Below are positions 3,808 to 7,328 of a stretch of 64,000 nt of DNA, in pieces. The notes beneath the pieces are model-generated. The model had not been told where the DNA came from, searched no databases, and saw nothing but the letters and a program-made list of their open reading frames with translations. Source of the stretch: a phage; assembly GCA_012747475.1 (NCBI GenBank), contig GCA_012747475.1_3928.1. One strand, 5' to 3'. Both the position numbers and the translations under genes were made by a program. The first letter of the stretch is position 1; every line of letters begins with the position of its first letter.

Positions 3808-3831
3808 AAAGGGTTCTTACGAGTATCCTTT
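3808..3831 (+). other. hairpin with conserved 12-nt loop TTCTTACGAGTA (copy 1)
   Basis: Stem AAAGGG/TCCTTT enclosing TTCTTACGAGTA; a second hairpin at 7305..7328 has loop TTCTTACGAGAG; both lie just downstream of a tRNA. Confidence 0.45.
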
Positions 3832-3838
3832 AAAGGAG

Positions 3839-3912
3839 CAGAAGACCAAATACAGCAAGTTACTTAAAATTTCAAGCCAATTTAATTTTGAAAAATTTAA
3901 AACTTGGTCTGG
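3839..3912 (+). repeat. conserved stem-flanked intergenic element C
   Basis: CAGAAGACCAAATACAGCAA at 5' end; terminal helix AGACCAA/TTGGTCT. Confidence 0.5.
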
Positions 3913-3925
3913 CTCAACAAATTTA

Positions 3926-4057
3926 CAGAAGACCGTTTACAGCAAAACTTAAACAATCTATTTCTCCGGTAAAGAAAAGGCGAAGGTTCGATTCCTTCAC
4001 TCGGCAGACGTCGAGTTGGTGTAATGGTAGCACTTAAGATGATAAACAACGGTCTGG
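3926..4057 (+). ncRNA. candidate Y RNA-like (YrlA-like) RNA: terminal helix enclosing a permuted tRNA-like module
   Basis: Terminal helix AGACCGTT (3930-3937) / AACGGTCT (4048-4055); inside, T-arm GAAGG-TTCGATT-CCTTC (3982-3998), then 7-bp acceptor-like hairpin ACTCGGC-AGAC-GTCGAGT (3999-4016), then D-arm-like TGGTGTAATGGTAGCAC; no anticodon arm. Confidence 0.45.
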
Positions 4058-4058
4058 T

Positions 4059-4202
4059 AATTATCTTTGTAGATAAGTTATTAAGCTTACCTGTGAGTAT
4101 GCGACCACAAAGGGTGAAAGGGTAAATTCTAGATTTAAACCCAAAAAGGCACATCGCTACAGACCTTAAGCAAGTCTGGGTAGCTTATCTACAAAGATAA
4201 TT
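4059..4202 (+). ncRNA. structured element: ~19-bp perfect terminal helix enclosing ~105 nt
   Basis: AATTATCTTTGTAGATAAG (4059-4077) is the exact reverse complement of CTTATCTACAAAGATAATT (4184-4202); sits between the YrlA-like element and tRNA-Lys. Confidence 0.35.
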
Positions 4203-4206
4203 TAAT

Positions 4207-4282
4207 GGAAGTGTAGCAGAATGGTGATGCGGCAGACTTTTAATCTGACAGGCGATGGGTTCGAATCCCTCCACTTCTACCA
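4207..4282 (+). tRNA. tRNA-Lys (anticodon TTT)
   Basis: Acceptor GGAAGTG/CACTTCT, anticodon loop CTTTTAA, T-loop TTCGAAT, A + CCA; T-stem imperfect in manual fold. Confidence 0.6.
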
Positions 4283-4286
4283 ATAT

Positions 4287-4363
4287 GGTTCAGTCGCAGA
4301 TAAGGTAATGCAAGGGTCTCATAAGCCCTATGAATGTGGGTTCGATTCCCATCTGAACCTCCA
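4287..4363 (+). tRNA. tRNA-Met (anticodon CAT)
   Basis: Acceptor GGTTCAG/CTGAACC, anticodon stem AGGGT/GCCCT with loop CTCATAA, T-arm GTGGG-TTCGATT-CCCAT, T + CCA. Confidence 0.65.
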
Positions 4364-4364
4364 A

Positions 4365-4440
4365 GCTGGTATAGTTAAGAAGGTTATAACACTCCCCTGA
4401 TAAGGGAACATCGGTGGTTCGATTCCACCTACCAGTACCA
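4365..4440 (+). tRNA. tRNA-Ile (anticodon GAT)
   Basis: Acceptor GCTGGTA/TACCAGT, anticodon loop CTGATAA, perfect T-arm GGTGG-TTCGATT-CCACC, A + CCA. Confidence 0.65.
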
Positions 4441-4455
4441 ATTTCAATAAAGTTG

Positions 4456-4484
4456 TTGACATTGAGATGTGACTACTTTATAGT
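4456..4484 (+). promoter_or_regulatory. sigma70-like promoter TTGACA-17-TATAGT
   Basis: TTGACA 4456-4461, 17-bp spacer, TATAGT 4479-4484; followed by ~230 nt non-coding leader before tRNA at 4718. Confidence 0.55.
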
Positions 4485-4717
4485 AACCTTAGTTTTCGTT
4501 GCGTAGCGTCTATTTTGCAAATTTAAAATAAATGCAAACGACAATGTTTTTCTGGCAGTAGCTTGATAGGCTAAACACCAGTGAGGTCTTCCAATCCCTC
4601 ATCAAAGAATTTGGCGTACTCGCCCACGGTATGATTAATAAGGTGGGCAACATTCTAAAGGGTATCCCTTATGGGGCTTGGCTTAAATGCAATAAGTACC
4701 CTTTAAAATGTTAATTA

Positions 4718-4799
4718 CGGGGCGTATCTCAGCGGTCTTCTAAACCGCCGTTAACCGAGTAAGTGGAGTATGCGGGTTCGAGTCCTGCCGCCTCGACCA
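4718..4799 (+). tRNA. tRNA-Arg-like (anticodon TCT), non-canonical D region
   Basis: Acceptor CGGGGCG/CGCCTCG, anticodon stem GCGGT/ACCGC with canonical loop CTTCTAA, T-arm GCGGG-TTCGAGT-CCTGC, A + CCA; no D-arm could be folded by hand. Confidence 0.4.
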
Positions 4800-4814
4800 A
4801 TTTTGGATGAAATC

Positions 4815-5162
4815 ATGAAAACTTGTCTTAAGTGTAAACTTAGCAAGGATGAAAATGATTTCTACATGAAAGATGGTAAGAGAACTCATTCATACTGTAA
4901 AAAGTGTGTTAATGAGCAAACCATAGAAAGACAAAGAGCACTTAAACTTTCAGCTATTGAGTACAAAGGTGGGGTTTGTCATGATTGTGGTAAAAGGTAT
5001 CATCCAGCAGTGTATGACTTCCATCATTTGAATCCTTCAGAGAAAGATTTTAGCATTGGTCATAGAAAGAGCCTTAAATTCTCTCAAGAGTTAAAGGACG
5101 AACTTGATAAATGTGTTTTGCTATGTTCAAATTGCCATAGGGTAAGACATGCAAAGTATTAG
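4815..5162 (+). CDS. HNH homing endonuclease
   Basis: Internal ATG of ORF 4770..5162 chosen so the CDS does not overlap the tRNA; zinc-finger cysteines (CLKC, CKKC, CHDC, CSNC) and HNH motif FHHLNP...N...H. Confidence 0.65.
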   Translation: MKTCLKCKLSKDENDFYMKDGKRTHSYCKKCVNEQTIERQRALKLSAIEYKGGVCHDCGKRYHPAVYDFHHLNPSEKDFSIGHRKSLKFSQELKDELDKCVLLCSNCHRVRHAKY

Positions 5163-5989: not shown

Positions 5990-6064
5990 GCATCCATAGT
6001 TTAAACGGGAAAATTACAGTCTTCCAAACTGAGGTTGAGGGTTCGATTCCCTCTGGATGCTCCA
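5990..6064 (+). tRNA. tRNA-Gly (anticodon TCC)
   Basis: Acceptor GCATCCA/TGGATGC, anticodon loop CTTCCAA, T-arm GAGGG-TTCGATT-CCCTC, T + CCA. Confidence 0.65.
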
Positions 6065-6071
6065 AATTAAT

Positions 6072-6147
6072 GCTCCTATCGTATAATTGGCTATTACGGT
6101 TGCCTTGTAAGCAACTTATCAGGGTTCGAATCCTTGTGGGAGCACCA
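6072..6147 (+). tRNA. tRNA-Thr (anticodon TGT)
   Basis: Acceptor GCTCCTA/TGGGAGC, anticodon stem GTTGC/GCAAC with loop CTTGTAA, T-loop TTCGAAT, A + CCA. Confidence 0.7.
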
Positions 6148-6242
6148 ATTCAGAGGTCAAGTGAAAGACCGCTGGTGTCAACTGAAGACCGTAACAAATT
6201 CCACGGAGTTGAGTTAGCGGCACAACTTCAGACCTCTTTCAT

Positions 6243-6317
6243 ACTCGCTTAGTTTATATGGTAAAACATCACCCTTACAAGATGAAGAAAAAGGTTCAAG
6301 TCCTTTAGTGAGTACCA
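6243..6317 (+). tRNA. tRNA-Val (anticodon TAC)
   Basis: Acceptor ACTCGCT/AGTGAGT, D-stem GTTT/AAAC, anticodon loop CTTACAA, perfect T-arm AAAGG-TTCAAGT-CCTTT, A + CCA. Confidence 0.65.
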
Positions 6318-6318
6318 T

Positions 6319-6396
6319 GTTCCAGTATCCCAATTGGCAGAGGATGCAAGCTCAAACCTTGTATTAGTGACGGTTCGAATCCGTCTTGGAACACCA
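6319..6396 (+). tRNA. tRNA-Leu-like (anticodon CAA), short variable arm
   Basis: Acceptor GTTCCAG/TTGGAAC + A + CCA, D-loop CAATTGGCAGAG, anticodon stem GCAAG/CTTGT with loop CTCAAAC, T-arm GACGG-TTCGAAT-CCGTC. Confidence 0.55.
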
Positions 6397-6401
6397 ATTT
6401 T

Positions 6402-6477
6402 GCAGGATTAGTTCAAATGGATAGAGTAACAGTCTACGAAGCTGTTAATAGGGGTTCGAATCCCTTATCCTGCGCCA
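6402..6477 (+). tRNA. tRNA-Arg (anticodon ACG)
   Basis: Acceptor GCAGGAT/ATCCTGC (perfect), anticodon stem ACAGT/GCTGT with loop CTACGAA, T-loop TTCGAAT, G + CCA. Confidence 0.7.
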
Positions 6478-6496
6478 ATTTAAAGAGGCTATTTAG

Positions 6497-7054
6497 ATGA
6501 GATATTTGAAGTATGCTTCATGGATTTTCTTAGCTTTGTTAGAGCCATTTGCAGCAATCTTAGCAGTTATCTTAGCACCTTTCGTAGTTCCATTCTACAG
6601 TGAGAAGAAAGGACATCTGCCTTTCGGGTTCAGATGGATGGAAACTTATGACAACCCAATTGATGGTGATGAAGGTCACGTTAAAAGATGGGCTAATATT
6701 AGATGGATTGGTAAACTAGGTGTCTACATGCAAAGAGTCGGATGGCTCTGGAGAAACAAAGCTTATAACTTCTCTTACCATGTATTAGGGAGAGATGTAA
6801 AAGATGTTACTAAGTGGAAAGGTAATATCAACGTAAGTTCTGACCCTGAAGATAATCAGACAGGTTATCTCCTAATGTGGAACAGTAATGCTTGGGGATT
6901 ATTCGCTTTTATCCCATCAATTAAAATCTTTGGTAAACAATTTTACTGGAGAATTTATATTGGATGGAAACTAAAAAGTGTTGTCCCAGAAGAAAGAGCA
7001 TTCTCAAGGGAAAGAGTTATGTTGGCATTCTTTATTCATCCACTGAGAAAGTAA
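6497..7054 (+). CDS. hypothetical membrane protein
   Basis: ORF track; AAGAGG SD; hydrophobic N-terminal segment (IFLALLEPFAAILAVILAPFVVPF); embedded in tRNA cluster. Confidence 0.6.
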   Translation: MRYLKYASWIFLALLEPFAAILAVILAPFVVPFYSEKKGHLPFGFRWMETYDNPIDGDEGHVKRWANIRWIGKLGVYMQRVGWLWRNKAYNFSYHVLGRDVKDVTKWKGNINVSSDPEDNQTGYLLMWNSNAWGLFAFIPSIKIFGKQFYWRIYIGWKLKSVVPEERAFSRERVMLAFFIHPLRK

Positions 7055-7062
7055 AGATTTAA

Positions 7063-7138
7063 AGGGGATTAGTTTACAAGGTTAAAACCTCGGTCTTTGA
7101 AATCGAAGAAGTTGGTTCAATTCCAACATCCCCCGCCA
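7063..7138 (+). tRNA. tRNA-Gln (anticodon TTG)
   Basis: Acceptor AGGGGAT/ATCCCCC (A1:C72 mismatch), D-stem GTTT/AAAC, anticodon loop CTTTGAA, perfect T-arm GTTGG-TTCAATT-CCAAC, G + CCA. Confidence 0.65.
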
Positions 7139-7140
7139 AT

Positions 7141-7219
7141 GCTCCATTACTCCAATTGGCAGAGAGGCCAGACTTAAAATCTGTGTTATGTATCGGTTCG
7201 AATCCGATATGGAGTACCA
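7141..7219 (+). tRNA. tRNA-Leu-like (anticodon TAA), short variable arm
   Basis: Acceptor GCTCCAT/ATGGAGT + A + CCA, D-loop CAATTGGCAGAG, anticodon loop CTTAAAA, perfect T-arm ATCGG-TTCGAAT-CCGAT. Confidence 0.55.
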
Positions 7220-7224
7220 AATTT

Positions 7225-7300
7225 AGCGGTATAGCATAACTGGCAATGCAGCAGTCTCTGAAGCTGTCCTATTAAGGTTCAAATCCTTATGCCGCTGCCA
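7225..7300 (+). tRNA. tRNA-Gln (anticodon CTG)
   Basis: Acceptor AGCGGTA/TGCCGCT, D-stem GCAT/ATGC, anticodon stem GCAGT/GCTGT with loop CTCTGAA, perfect T-arm TAAGG-TTCAAAT-CCTTA, G + CCA. Confidence 0.55.
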
Positions 7301-7304
7301 CTTC

Positions 7305-7328
7305 TAAGGATTCTTACGAGAGTCCTTA
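7305..7328 (+). other. hairpin with conserved 12-nt loop TTCTTACGAGAG (copy 2)
   Basis: Stem TAAGGA/TCCTTA; loop shares TTCTTACGAG with hairpin at 3808..3831. Confidence 0.45.

What the first reader, a model, noticed from the sequence alone, without database searches (positions are those of the whole stretch)
3808..7328. Conserved hairpin loop TTCTTACGAG after two different tRNAs
Hairpins at 3808-3831 and 7305-7328 have unrelated 6-bp stems but nearly identical 12-nt loops (TTCTTACGAGTA and TTCTTACGAGAG). Loop conservation without stem conservation suggests a sequence-specific binding or processing site.
Basis: seen in the sequence. Interest (0 to 1): 0.45.

Follow-up and report, generated by a model that had tools for sequence, protein, structure and literature searches.

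The report
Conserved RNase III-type hairpins between phage tRNAs
The two look-alike hairpins are real copies of one RNA stem-loop family found in Felix O1-like, T5-like and phiEco32-like phages, and they most likely serve as cutting sites for the host enzyme RNase III, a familiar kind of signal in a place where it had not been described.

Summary
The window is a Felix O1-like phage (Felixounavirus) with a 25-tRNA array. Both hairpins are at the stated coordinates. They are not 6-bp unrelated stems with 12-nt loops. They are 9-10 bp stems capped by a UACG tetraloop, 19 of 22 nt identical to each other, with further pairing below.

They belong to a strand-specific RNA hairpin family supported by covariation. 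The family also occurs in Mooglevirus, Suspvirus, Kolesnikvirus, Kuravirus (phiEco32) and T5-like phages. In T5 it forms the 3' end of the annotated stable 'RNAX', 5 nt before tRNA-Arg. Copies usually sit 0-8 nt upstream of a tRNA or tRNA-like gene.

The least variable base pairs match the published E. coli RNase III determinants: distal box UA then UG/CG, a 4-bp spacer, then proximal box GC, AU, AU, AU/UA. The same rule recovers exactly four hairpins in T7, at the positions I recall for RNase III sites R0.5, R1.1, R1.3 and R18.5. In this window it recovers only these two hairpins (0.34 expected).

Best explanation, confidence about 0.5: host RNase III processing sites that punctuate untranslated phage transcripts. 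This is a new member of a known kind, of moderate interest.

Seen in passing: a Ro60-like gene with Y-RNA-like modules, and a tmRNA-like element.

The parts
3801..3838 (+). Hairpin 1: CUCCCUUAAAGGGUUCU[UACG]AGUAUCCUUUAAAGGAG. Counted from the loop: U-A, C-G, U.U, U-A, G.U, G-C, then G-C, A-U, A-U, A-U (proximal-box-like), U-A, U-A, a 1x1 mismatch, and CUCC/GGAG. Predicted RNase III cuts at 3807|3808 and 3833|3834 (inference).
   Evidence: fold -15.1 kcal/mol; covariance-model hit 55.9 bits on the + strand against 22.2 on the - strand; G-C to G-U to A-U covariation in relatives; matches the db/pb rule.
7298..7335 (+). Hairpin 2: CCACUUCUAAGGAUUCU[UACG]AGAGUCCUUAAAUGUGG. It has a 10-bp upper stem, a 3x3 internal loop, and a 4-bp lower stem made from the CCA end of tRNA-Gln and the first bases of tRNA-His. 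Predicted RNase III cuts at 7304|7305 and 7330|7331 (inference).
   Evidence: fold -17.0 kcal/mol, z = -5.8; 57.1 bits on + against 27.8 on -; variants A-U/G-U and U-G/U-A.
36260..36300 (-). Divergent third copy: ACUUAAGAGUCUU[CUAAG]AGGGUUUUUAAGU. It lies in a minus-strand intergenic 5' leader, downstream of a TTGACA-17-TATACT promoter-like site.
   Evidence: 18 bits, E = 0.08; intergenic, promoter-like site upstream; fold -14.1 kcal/mol, z = -3.2; matches the relaxed db/pb rule.
3700..3777 (+). tRNA-Asp(GUC), the unit upstream of hairpin 1.
3785..3805 (+). Small G+C-rich hairpin (GAGAGGGCU AUUU AGCCCCUC) between tRNA-Asp and hairpin 1. Its 3' arm overlaps the CUCC of hairpin 1's lower stem, so the two are alternative structures.
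   Evidence: conserved in relatives.
3839..3915 (+). Structured unit directly downstream of hairpin 1 (5' CAGAAGACCAA ... UUGGUCUGG 3'). It is one of four repeated Y-RNA-like modules.
7225..7300 (+). tRNA-Gln(CUG), the unit upstream of hairpin 2.
7332..7407 (+). tRNA-His(GUG), starting 3 nt after the upper stem of hairpin 2.
4649..4714 (+). Position where most Felix O1-like relatives carry a third family member (AUCUUUAAGGGCUUUC UAA GAGAGUCUUUAAAGAU), just upstream of a tRNA-like gene. This window instead has a larger stem-loop there (CAUUCUAAAGGGUA ... UACCCUUUAAAAUG).

Best explanation
The two hairpins are RNA elements on the tRNA-coding strand. They belong to one family of UNCG-capped stem-loops that act as processing signals for the host double-strand-specific endonuclease RNase III.

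**Proposed mechanism.**
1. The long untranslated transcript carrying tRNAs, Y-RNA-like and tmRNA-like RNAs folds co-transcriptionally.
2. RNase III recognises the distal box next to the tetraloop (U-A then C-G or U-G).
3. Four base pairs further down it recognises the proximal box (G-C, A-U, A-U, A-U or U-A).
4. It cuts just below the proximal box.

**Predicted outcome in this window.**
- Hairpin 2 is excised, leaving tRNA-Gln with a 4-nt trailer and tRNA-His with a 1-nt leader.
- At hairpin 1 the tRNA-Asp trailer is separated from the downstream Y-RNA-like unit.
- RNase P and 3' exonucleases finish the ends.

**Shown versus inferred.**
- Shown: the structure, its strand specificity, covariation, distribution, position relative to tRNAs, and the match to the published determinants.
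- Inferred: that cleavage happens at all, and the exact cut sites.
For: 1. **RNA-level hairpin.**
   - 92.5% of cells pair, against 78% in shuffles and 40-59% when the partner is slid.
   - 12 of 18 pairs change on both sides.
   - G.U pairs are frequent, and covariance-model scores are about 30 bits higher on the transcribed strand.
2. **Conservation and spread.**
   - Both copies are kept in every Felixounavirus, Suspvirus and Mooglevirus locus whose sequence reaches those positions.
   - Related copies occur in Kolesnikvirus.
   - Three copies occur in phiEco32-like Kuravirus.
   - The family is present throughout T5-like Demerecviridae (523 records).
   - A specific 22-nt pattern hits only these three phage groups in IMG/VR.
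3. **Match to RNase III determinants.**
   - Pertzev and Nicholson 2006 (PMC1540722) define the site as an 11-bp helix with db UA/UG, then pb1 GC, pb2 AU/UA, pb3 AU, pb4 AU/UA.
   - In the family, counted from the loop: position 1 is UA in 20/20; position 2 is CG in 13 and UG in 7; positions 3-6 vary; position 7 is GC in 18/20; position 8 is AU in 19/20; position 9 is AU in 20/20; position 10 is UA in 12 and AU in 6.
   - The db-to-pb spacing is the same as in T7 R1.1.
4. **Specificity of the rule.**
   - Scanned over the T7 plus strand, with pb4 left free because natural T7 sites have an internal loop there, it returns exactly four hairpins, at the positions of R0.5, R1.1, R1.3 and R18.5. The site names and positions rest on my knowledge of Dunn and Studier 1983; R1.1 is corroborated by PMC1540722.
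   - In this window it returns only hairpins 1 and 2 (plus the reverse complement of hairpin 2) among 967 hairpins, with 0.34 expected.
   - The relaxed rule gives 4 sites against 0.55 in shuffles.
5. **Independent hairpins fit too.** Other hairpins in Kuravirus and Felix O1-like loci have different middle sequences but the same boxes and UNCG loops.
6. **Position.** Copies sit between separately functioning RNAs, 0-8 nt upstream of a tRNA or tRNA-like 5' end, in five independent contexts.
7. **Precedent.** E. coli RNase III takes part in maturation of phage T4 tRNAs (review PMC4810235).
Against: - There is no experimental end-mapping for any of these phages.
- In the window's copies the helix between the predicted cut and the loop is 10 bp. 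The published minimum is 11 bp, and removing 1 bp cost 50-fold in vitro. The fit therefore needs the U.G pair inside the UNCG loop to count.
- Hairpin 1 has a U.U mismatch at position 3.
- The window's copies have C-G at db2, not the optimal U-G. T7 R0.5 and R1.3 also have C-G there.
- I chose the register after seeing the hairpins.
- The Erwinia copy and the second T5-like copy fit the boxes only after a 1-bp shift.
- The apical sequence UUCU-UACG-AGAG is more conserved than RNase III recognition alone seems to require. In T7 sites the apex is variable.
- The T5 RefSeq record annotates 'RNAX' as a stable RNA running up to the tRNA-Arg boundary, hairpin included. If that end was mapped, the hairpin survives in vivo.
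Confidence: 0.5

Rival explanations
1. The hairpin is not cleaved. It is a structural punctuation element. RNase P cuts at the 5' end of the downstream tRNA, which leaves the hairpin as the 3'-terminal stem-loop of the upstream RNA. There it blocks 3'-to-5' exonucleases, and it also insulates neighbouring tRNA folds from each other.
For: - The hairpin sits 0-8 nt upstream of a tRNA or tRNA-like 5' end in five contexts.
- In T5 it lies within the last 43 nt of the annotated 719-nt stable RNA 'RNAX', ending 5 nt before the RNA's 3' end, which abuts tRNA-Arg.
- UNCG tetraloops (UACG, UGCG, UCCG) are classic stabilisers (own knowledge: Tuerk et al. 1988, T4 intercistronic hairpins).
- This reading is compatible with T7, where RNase III cleavage itself leaves a protective 3' hairpin.
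Against: - It does not explain why the G-C, A-U, A-U, W-W block and the U-A next to the loop are the least variable pairs.
- It does not explain why the stems are A/U- and G.U-rich rather than maximally stable.
- The closing pair is U-A, not the stabilising C-G.
- For hairpins 1 and 2 the upstream unit is a tRNA whose 3' end must be freed, so a protective trailer hairpin would hinder maturation.
Confidence: 0.24
2. The hairpins are weak intrinsic (Rho-independent) terminators or attenuators that subdivide the tRNA array.
For: - The annotators of Citrobacter phage Michonne labelled hairpin 2 a 'terminator'.
- The same core sequence with flanking A- and T-runs looks like a genuine terminator after a tRNA in a Ca. 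Thioglobus MAG and in a Patescibacteria MAG.
Against: - There is no U-tract after either hairpin (UUAAAU, UUUAAAGG).
- Neither is called by the terminator scan.
- Neither is in the Felix O1 terminator table, whose members have G+C-rich stems and T-runs.
- Hairpin 2 ends 3 nt before tRNA-His with no room for a restart promoter, so termination there would silence tRNA-His, tRNA-Phe and downstream genes.
Confidence: 0.06
3. The apex mimics the anticodon arm of tRNA-Arg(ACG). The hairpin would then be a substrate, sponge or decoy for a protein that reads that arm, such as the TadA A-to-I deaminase or an anticodon nuclease.
For: - The apex UUACGAG matches 6 of 7 positions of the TadA motif YUACGAA, which must sit in a stem-loop (PMC12255301).
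- One relative carries UGCG, which is the 'edited' base hard-coded.
- The phage encodes its own tRNA-Arg(ACG) at 6402-6477.
Against: - The register is wrong. TadA sites have a 7-nt loop on a 5-bp stem. Here the predicted loop is 4 nt (6 at most), and the G at +4 pairs with a C that covaries.
- Family members carry UCCG, CACG, UAUA or UAA loops. That fits a UNCG-type or free loop, not a fixed UACG.
Confidence: 0.07
4. The element acts at the DNA level, as a palindromic protein-binding site, cruciform or recombination hotspot at module junctions.
For: - The sequence is an imperfect palindrome made of two AGAGTTCTTA-like half repeats.
- Insertions and deletions of ORFs occur next to it in phiEco32 and T5 relatives.
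- One relative has three simultaneous changes that perfect the palindrome (L079).
Against: - Many pairs are G.U or U.G. On the other strand these would be A.C mismatches.
- One-sided changes are of the G-C/G-U/A-U type.
- The covariance model scores about 30 bits lower on the opposite strand.
- The element always lies on the transcribed strand, including the minus-strand copy at 36260-36300.
Confidence: 0.04
5. The hairpins are neutral relics, for example decayed T-arm or pseudo-tRNA fragments duplicated within the array, and have no function.
For: The stem AAGGGUUC...CCUU resembles the T-arms of the neighbouring tRNAs (AAGGGTTCAAATCCCTT), and the array contains pseudo-tRNA pieces.
Against: - Both copies are retained across four Ounavirinae genera with compensatory changes.
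- Homologous hairpins exist in T5-like and phiEco32-like phages in non-tRNA contexts.
Confidence: 0.04

Closest known systems
Phage T7 RNase III processing signals (R0.5, R1.1, R1.3, R18.5 and others)
   Same: - Upper stem of about 10 bp that starts xAAGG on the 5' arm and ends CCUUx on the 3' arm.
- U-A then U-G or C-G pairs near the loop, with the same 4-bp spacing between the boxes.
- Often an internal loop and a lower stem below, as in hairpin 2.
- Several sequence-related copies per genome, lying between functional units of polycistronic transcripts.
- R1.1 is AAGGUCAUUC-GCAA-GAGUGGCCUU; hairpin 2 is AAGGAUUCU-UACG-AGAGUCCUU.
   Different: - T7 sites separate mRNAs, whereas these mostly flank tRNAs and small RNAs.
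- In T7 the apex is variable and the base is conserved. Here the apex (UUCU-UNCG-AGAG) is also conserved.
- The T7 distal box is one pair further from the loop.
- T5-like copies are fully paired 16-17-bp stems without an internal loop.
- Cleavage is demonstrated for T7 and not for these hairpins.
RNase III step in phage T4 tRNA-cluster maturation and in rRNA operon processing
   Same: Host RNase III acts on a double-stranded stem in an untranslated precursor holding several stable RNAs, before RNase P and exonucleases finish the ends (review PMC4810235; rRNA operons from general knowledge).
   Different: No sequence relationship was tested. T4 and rRNA stems form between distant segments or in the 5' leader. 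Here each stem is a compact local hairpin repeated at several junctions.
UNCG-tetraloop intercistronic hairpins of phage T4 (C(UUCG)G hairpins)
   Same: Very stable tetraloop-capped hairpins in non-coding parts of phage transcripts. The loops seen here (UACG, UGCG, UCCG) are UNCG.
   Different: The closing pair here is U-A, not C-G. The stems are long and rich in A/U and G.U. The conserved positions lie in the stem rather than in the loop. This comparison rests on my own knowledge, not on a tool result.
TadA (tRNA-Arg ACG anticodon-arm) editing sites in mRNAs
   Same: A UACG motif presented at the tip of a stem-loop, with 6 of 7 positions matching YUACGAA (PMC12255301).
   Different: The loop size and register do not fit a 7-nt anticodon-type loop, and relatives vary the UACG.

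Membership tests
E. coli RNase III substrate (Pertzev and Nicholson 2006 determinants) | Double helix of at least 11 bp between the scissile bond and the loop | tested here: inconclusive
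   - Hairpin 2 has 10 Watson-Crick or wobble pairs above the predicted cut, plus the U.G pair inside the UNCG loop.
- Hairpin 1 has 10 with one U.U mismatch.
- T5-like and Felix 'h3' copies have 16-17 bp and meet the requirement clearly.

E. coli RNase III substrate (Pertzev and Nicholson 2006 determinants) | Distal box: U-A then U-G, near the loop | tested here: inconclusive
   - Position 1 from the loop is U-A in 20/20.
- Position 2 is U-G in 7 and C-G in 13; the window's two copies have C-G.
- C-G at this position also occurs in T7 R0.5 and R1.3.
- The paper reports that every distal-box substitution it examined lowered activity in vitro.
E. coli RNase III substrate (Pertzev and Nicholson 2006 determinants) | Proximal box four pairs further down: pb1 G-C, pb2 A-U/U-A, pb3 A-U, pb4 A-U/U-A, with no G-C or C-G at pb2 or pb4 | tested here: met
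   - Family counts are G-C 18/20, A-U 19/20, A-U 20/20, and U-A 12 with A-U 6.
- Both window copies match exactly.
- The rule finds only the four expected sites in T7.
E. coli RNase III substrate (Pertzev and Nicholson 2006 determinants) | rnc-dependent cleavage in vivo or cleavage by the purified enzyme | not testable with these tools
   No transcript-end data for these phages were available.
Intrinsic (Rho-independent) terminator | G+C-rich stem immediately followed by a U-rich tract | tested here: not met
   - The tails are UUUAAAGG and UUAAAUGU.
- Neither hairpin is reported by the terminator scan.
- Neither is in the Felix O1 terminator table.
TadA A-to-I editing site | YUACGAA as a 7-nt loop on a stem of about 5 bp | tested here: not met
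   The sequence matches 6 of 7 positions, but the predicted loop is 4 nt and the flanking C-G and U-A pairs are supported by covariation. Relatives carry other loops.
UNCG tetraloop hairpin | UNCG loop | tested here: met
   UACG in both window copies. Relatives have UGCG and UCCG, and also the non-UNCG loops CACG, UAUA and UAA.
UNCG tetraloop hairpin | C-G closing pair (the extra-stable C(UNCG)G form) | tested here: not met
   The closing pair is U-A in 20/20 sequences.
Any Rfam family | Match to a curated covariance model | tested here: not met
   Nothing meaningful over either hairpin at E <= 1: hairpin 1 has no match, hairpin 2 only sub-threshold miRNA-model hits (mir-4659, 22-25 bits against a gathering score of 92). 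In the three other loci scanned (L116, L106, L115) no match at E <= 0.1.

The most novel reading that the evidence does not exclude
The hairpin is a portable RNA module exchanged among unrelated enterobacterial phages, and its conserved apex (UUCU-UACG-AGAG) is read by something other than, or in addition to, RNase III. One possibility is a mimic of the tRNA-Arg(ACG) anticodon arm that titrates or is edited by TadA, or that decoys a host anticodon nuclease. Another is a tag that marks the 5' boundaries of the phage's tRNA-like RNAs (Y-RNA-like units and the tmRNA-like domain) for the adjacent Ro60-like protein.
Probability: 0.12. Interest if true: 0.65.

Novelty: new member of a known kind. 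Interest (0 to 1): 0.4.

Why it matters
**If the hairpins are RNase III sites.**
- Large phage tRNA arrays in Felix O1-like and T5-like phages would be cut into units by a defined, sequence-coded host step, in addition to RNase P and RNase E.
- The predicted cut positions are concrete and easy to test.
- The same signal would then be shared by three phage families that infect Enterobacterales. That would make it a useful annotation feature, since some genomes currently label it 'terminator'.
- It would also be a compact, portable processing signal for engineering multi-RNA transcripts.

**What the neighbourhood adds.** The work shows that this 'tRNA region' holds more than tRNAs: Y-RNA-like modules next to a Ro60-like gene, and a tmRNA-like element.

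**If the hairpins are only structural.** The finding is ordinary.

Tried and rejected
- **Rfam.** A scan of the region and of three other loci gave no family for the hairpin.
- **Bacterial genomes.** A pattern scan of 185,579 species genomes found no host (E. coli or Salmonella) copy. The six hits were:
  - one coding chance hit;
  - one phiEco32-like contig inside a MAG;
  - three contig ends of a single Ca. Thioglobus MAG, where it is a terminator after a tRNA;
  - one Patescibacteria terminator.
  A host-derived origin is therefore rejected. The scan also showed that similar stems can arise convergently as terminators.
- **First IMG/VR scan.** The looser pattern gave many hits outside the three phage families. 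All of those lie inside long ORFs and are chance.
- **Anticodon stem-loop mimic with a 7-nt loop.** Rejected because that register breaks the lower stem.
- **lambda/rrn boxA-like antitermination site.** UCUUAC resembles nutR boxA from memory, but the bases are paired, the position is far from the promoters, and I had no tool test, so I did not pursue it.
- **Link to the upstream Ro60-like protein.** phiEco32-like and T5-like phages carry the hairpin, but neither group appears among the top-10 organism counts or the 40 sampled hits of the 710 records matching that protein. I therefore rejected that protein as the general partner; the 670 unlisted records were not checked.
- **Literature.** Searches for a description of the hairpin in Felix O1, T5 or phiEco32 papers found nothing.
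- **PDB and NCBIfam.** Sequence searches with the 471-aa protein gave nothing useful.

Full report
**What the window is.** Megablast of 3000-8500 gives 97% identity to Escherichia phage KEP1 and Salmonella phage Felix O1, so the window is a Felixounavirus. ARAGORN finds 25 tRNA genes on the + strand between 3048 and 8415. The array is interrupted by small ORFs, including an HNH endonuclease, DUF7338 and DUF7217.

**Checking the observation.**
- The shared 22-nt core AAGGNTTCTTACGAGNNTCCTT occurs twice, against 0.03 expected.
- A third exact TTCTTACGAG at 18253-18262 (minus strand) scores nothing with the covariance model and is taken as chance.
- The anatomy differs from the description. RNAfold pairs four more base pairs inside the supposed 12-nt loop and leaves a UACG tetraloop. 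Each hairpin also extends outward, to 3801-3838 and 7298-7335, at -15.1 and -17.0 kcal/mol with z = -3.4 and -5.8.
- The stems are not unrelated. The two copies are identical at 19 of 22 positions.
- Hairpin 2 fills the 31-nt spacer between tRNA-Gln(CUG) and tRNA-His. Other spacers in the array are mostly 1-8 nt.
- Hairpin 1 lies 23-31 nt after tRNA-Asp, behind a small G+C-rich hairpin, and 5 nt before a repeated structured unit.

**Conservation in relatives.** I collected 32 loci around the upstream 471-aa gene from IMG/VR.
- Every Felixounavirus, Suspvirus and Mooglevirus locus whose sequence reaches those positions keeps both hairpins.
- Citrobacter phage Michonne also has both, and its annotators called hairpin 2 a 'terminator'.
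- The variation is of the kind expected for RNA pairing. In hairpin 1, G-C changes to G-U and to A-U. In hairpin 2, A-U alternates with G-U and U-G with U-A.
- One relative has UGCG instead of UACG.
- Erwinia phage FIfi106 (Kolesnikvirus) packs its tRNAs differently but carries AAAAGGUUCUUACGAGAGUCUUU a few nucleotides upstream of tRNA-Leu(CAA).

**The family is much wider.**
- Pattern scans of IMG/VR found the same core in about 77-kb contigs that are phiEco32-like Kuravirus. There it sits directly after a stop codon, in a 290-nt intergenic region full of hairpins.
- Two further diverged copies, with UGCG and UCCG loops, occur elsewhere in those genomes.
- A short BLAST query then picked up Salmonella phage SE19, a T5-like phage.
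- Follow-up showed a 16-17-bp version, GUAUCUUUAAGAGYUYU-loop-AGAGUUCUUAAAGAUAC, in 523 Demerecviridae records. These span Tequintavirus, Epseptimavirus, Sugarlandvirus and Myunavirus.
- In T5 itself the hairpin lies 5 nt upstream of tRNA-Arg(UCU). It forms the 3' end of the 719-nt 'RNAX, stable RNA with unknown functions' in the RefSeq record.
- A stricter 22-nt degenerate pattern hits only Felix O1-like, phiEco32-like and T5-like contigs in 2.9 million viral contigs.
- Most Felix O1-like relatives have a third copy just upstream of a tRNA-like gene. This window has a different, larger stem-loop at that place, 4649-4714.
- The window has a diverged extra copy on the minus strand at 36260-36300. 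It lies in an intergenic leader downstream of a promoter-like site.

**RNA, not DNA.** I aligned 20 distinct family members and counted pairs for an 18-pair structure.
- 92.5% of cells pair, against 78% after shuffling and 40-59% with the partner slid.
- 12 pairs change on both sides.
- G.U and U.G pairs are common.
- A covariance model built from the alignment scores 43-60 bits on the transcribed strand and 22-34 bits on the other.
- The element is always on the strand of the neighbouring genes, including the minus-strand copy.

**What it is not.**
- *Terminator.* No U-tract follows either hairpin. The terminator scan does not call them, and the Felix O1 paper's terminator table omits them (PMC3185647). 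A terminator 3 nt before tRNA-His would also be self-defeating.
- *Known RNA family.* No Rfam family matches.
- *Host sequence.* No copy exists in host genomes. The same stem occurs as a genuine-looking terminator after a tRNA in two unrelated MAGs, so short stems of this type can arise independently.
- *TadA site.* The apex UUACGAG matches 6 of 7 positions of the motif YUACGAA (PMC12255301). But the loop register does not fit a 7-nt anticodon-type loop, and relatives vary the loop.

**The RNase III argument.** Pertzev and Nicholson (PMC1540722) define an E. coli RNase III site as follows.
- An 11-bp helix between the scissile bond and the loop.
- A distal box, U-A then U-G, next to the loop.
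- A proximal box next to the scissile bond: pb1 G-C, pb2 A-U or U-A, pb3 A-U, pb4 A-U or U-A.
- In T7 R1.1 (AAGGUCAUUC-GCAA-GAGUGGCCUU) four pairs separate the two boxes.

Counted from the loop, the hairpin family shows this pattern:

| Position from loop | Pairs observed | Corresponds to |
|---|---|---|
| 1 | U-A 20/20 | distal box 1 |
| 2 | C-G 13, U-G 7 | distal box 2 |
| 3-6 | variable, covarying | spacer |
| 7 | G-C 18/20 | pb1 |
| 8 | A-U 19/20 | pb2 |
| 9 | A-U 20/20 | pb3 |
| 10 | U-A 12, A-U 6 | pb4 |

- The least variable pairs therefore coincide with the two boxes at the published spacing, including the either-orientation tolerance at pb4.
- T5, the Klebsiella phage and one Kuravirus copy have the canonical UA/UG distal box.
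- As a positive control, I scanned the whole T7 plus strand with the rule, leaving pb4 free because natural T7 sites have an internal loop there. It returned exactly four hairpins, at the positions of R0.5, R1.1, R1.3 and R18.5, with no false positives. Those site names and positions rest on my knowledge of Dunn and Studier 1983.
- As a negative control, among 967 hairpins of at least 10 bp on both strands of this window, only hairpins 1 and 2 (and the reverse complement of hairpin 2) satisfy the rule, with 0.34 expected.
- A relaxed rule gives four sites against 0.55 in shuffles.
- In Kuravirus and Felix O1-like loci the rule also picks up other hairpins with different middle sequences but the same boxes and UNCG loops. 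That is what recognition by boxes predicts.
- RNase III is already known to take part in T4 tRNA maturation (PMC4810235).

**Predicted outcome (inference).**
- At hairpin 2, cuts at 7304|7305 and 7330|7331 would leave tRNA-Gln with a 4-nt trailer and tRNA-His with a 1-nt leader.
- At hairpin 1, cuts at 3807|3808 and 3833|3834 would free the 5' side of the 3839-3915 unit.
- In T5, the cut would leave an 11-nt leader on tRNA-Arg.

**Weak points.**
- The helix above the predicted cut is 10 bp in the window's copies, one short of the in vitro minimum unless the UNCG U.G pair counts.
- Hairpin 1 has a U.U mismatch.
- The window's copies have C-G, not U-G, at the second distal-box pair.
- I chose the register after seeing the hairpins.
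- Two family members fit only after a 1-bp shift.
- The apex is more conserved than RNase III alone requires.
- The T5 annotation of RNAX, if based on mapped ends, would mean the hairpin is retained.
- The main rival is therefore an uncleaved 3'-end and insulator hairpin released by RNase P cleavage of the downstream tRNA. The two readings are not mutually exclusive, because T7 RNase III cuts leave protective 3' hairpins.

**Verdict.**
- The interpretation as a processing or binding site is partly supported.
- The most likely identity is a family of host RNase III processing hairpins, at confidence about 0.5.
- RNase III sites in phage transcripts are a known kind. I found no description of this family or its cross-family distribution, so I rate it a new member of a known kind, of moderate interest.

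Noticed in passing
window 1467-2882 (+): A 471-aa protein (DUF2828 + DUF7788; phrog_850 'RNA-binding protein') sits directly upstream of the tRNA array. Homologues in mycobacteriophages are annotated 'Ro-like RNA binding protein', and 710 phage records carry one. A preprint on the Felixounavirus Bas63 (PMC11482910) reports that its gp130, the gene directly upstream of that phage's tRNA genes and so most likely the homologue of this protein, has a Ro60-like fold and counters the ppl defence. It speculates that some 'tRNAs' there are Y RNAs.
   Followed up: partly
window 3217-3293, 3384-3450, 3839-3915, 3926-4080 (+): Four repeated units of the form 5'-CAGAAGACCNNN ... NNNGGUCUGG-3'. The NNN triplets covary (CAA/UUG against CGU/ACG), so each unit is closed by a stem. 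The fourth folds into a permuted tRNA-like cloverleaf: closing stem, V hairpin, T-arm, a 7-bp 'acceptor' hairpin closed by a tetraloop, and a D-arm. That is the YrlA-type Y RNA architecture (PMC4201824). The 5' CAGAAG resembles the Ro-binding motif GNCGAA(N)G. These are candidate Y RNAs for the adjacent Ro60-like protein, and Rfam does not detect them.
   Followed up: partly
window 4456-4796 (+): A promoter-like site (TTGACA-17-TATAGT) at 4456-4484 is followed by a non-coding RNA carrying a tmRNA-type tag frame, GCA AAC GAC AAU GUU UUU CUG GCA GUA GCU UGA UAG (ANDNVFLAVA**), at about 4531-4566. The Erwinia phage conserves it as ANDAQFLAVA. It aligns to the tag region of Rfam tmRNA_permuted at 29 bits, below threshold. 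After it, at 4718-4796, comes a tRNA-like gene with a reduced D-arm, a G3:U70 acceptor stem and an ACCA end. ARAGORN calls no tmRNA. This may be an unusual phage tmRNA arrangement, with the message part upstream of a complete tRNA-like part.
   Followed up: partly
L156 20849-21567 (T5 record 40848-41566, minus strand); L116 2075-2530: In T5-like phages the hairpin closes a 480-720-nt conserved non-coding RNA, annotated in T5 as 'RNAX, stable RNA with unknown functions'. It has no Rfam match. The T5 tRNA region carries seven more annotated stable RNAs of unknown function.
   Followed up: no
L079 13290-13327: One Felix O1-like relative has three simultaneous substitutions (AAAT to GAAG) that turn the imperfect lower part of hairpin 2 into a perfect 18-bp stem (-30.4 kcal/mol). 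This looks like templated correction of a quasi-palindrome.
   Followed up: no
L109-L111 (Ca. Thioglobus MAG contig ends) and L113 109-130 (Patescibacteria MAG): The same 22-nt core, flanked by A- and T-runs, forms a textbook intrinsic terminator directly after a tRNA gene in unrelated bacteria. This is probably convergence.
   Followed up: no
L107 720-977 against L106 2608; L116 2551-3060; L120 1338-1843: Small ORFs are inserted or absent immediately next to the hairpin in phiEco32-like and T5-like relatives, so the hairpin often marks a boundary of mosaic modules.
   Followed up: no
window 4770-5162 (+): An HNH endonuclease ORF (phrog_2255) has its longest reading frame starting inside the T-arm of the tRNA-like gene at 4718-4796. 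Related phages carry HNH genes at other positions in the array.
   Followed up: no
window 48571-48598 (-): One further hairpin satisfies the relaxed RNase III box rule (CGACUAAGUGUGUUG[GUGUGA]CAGCAUCUUUACGAU). It is unrelated in sequence and probably chance, given 0.55 expected per window.
   Followed up: no
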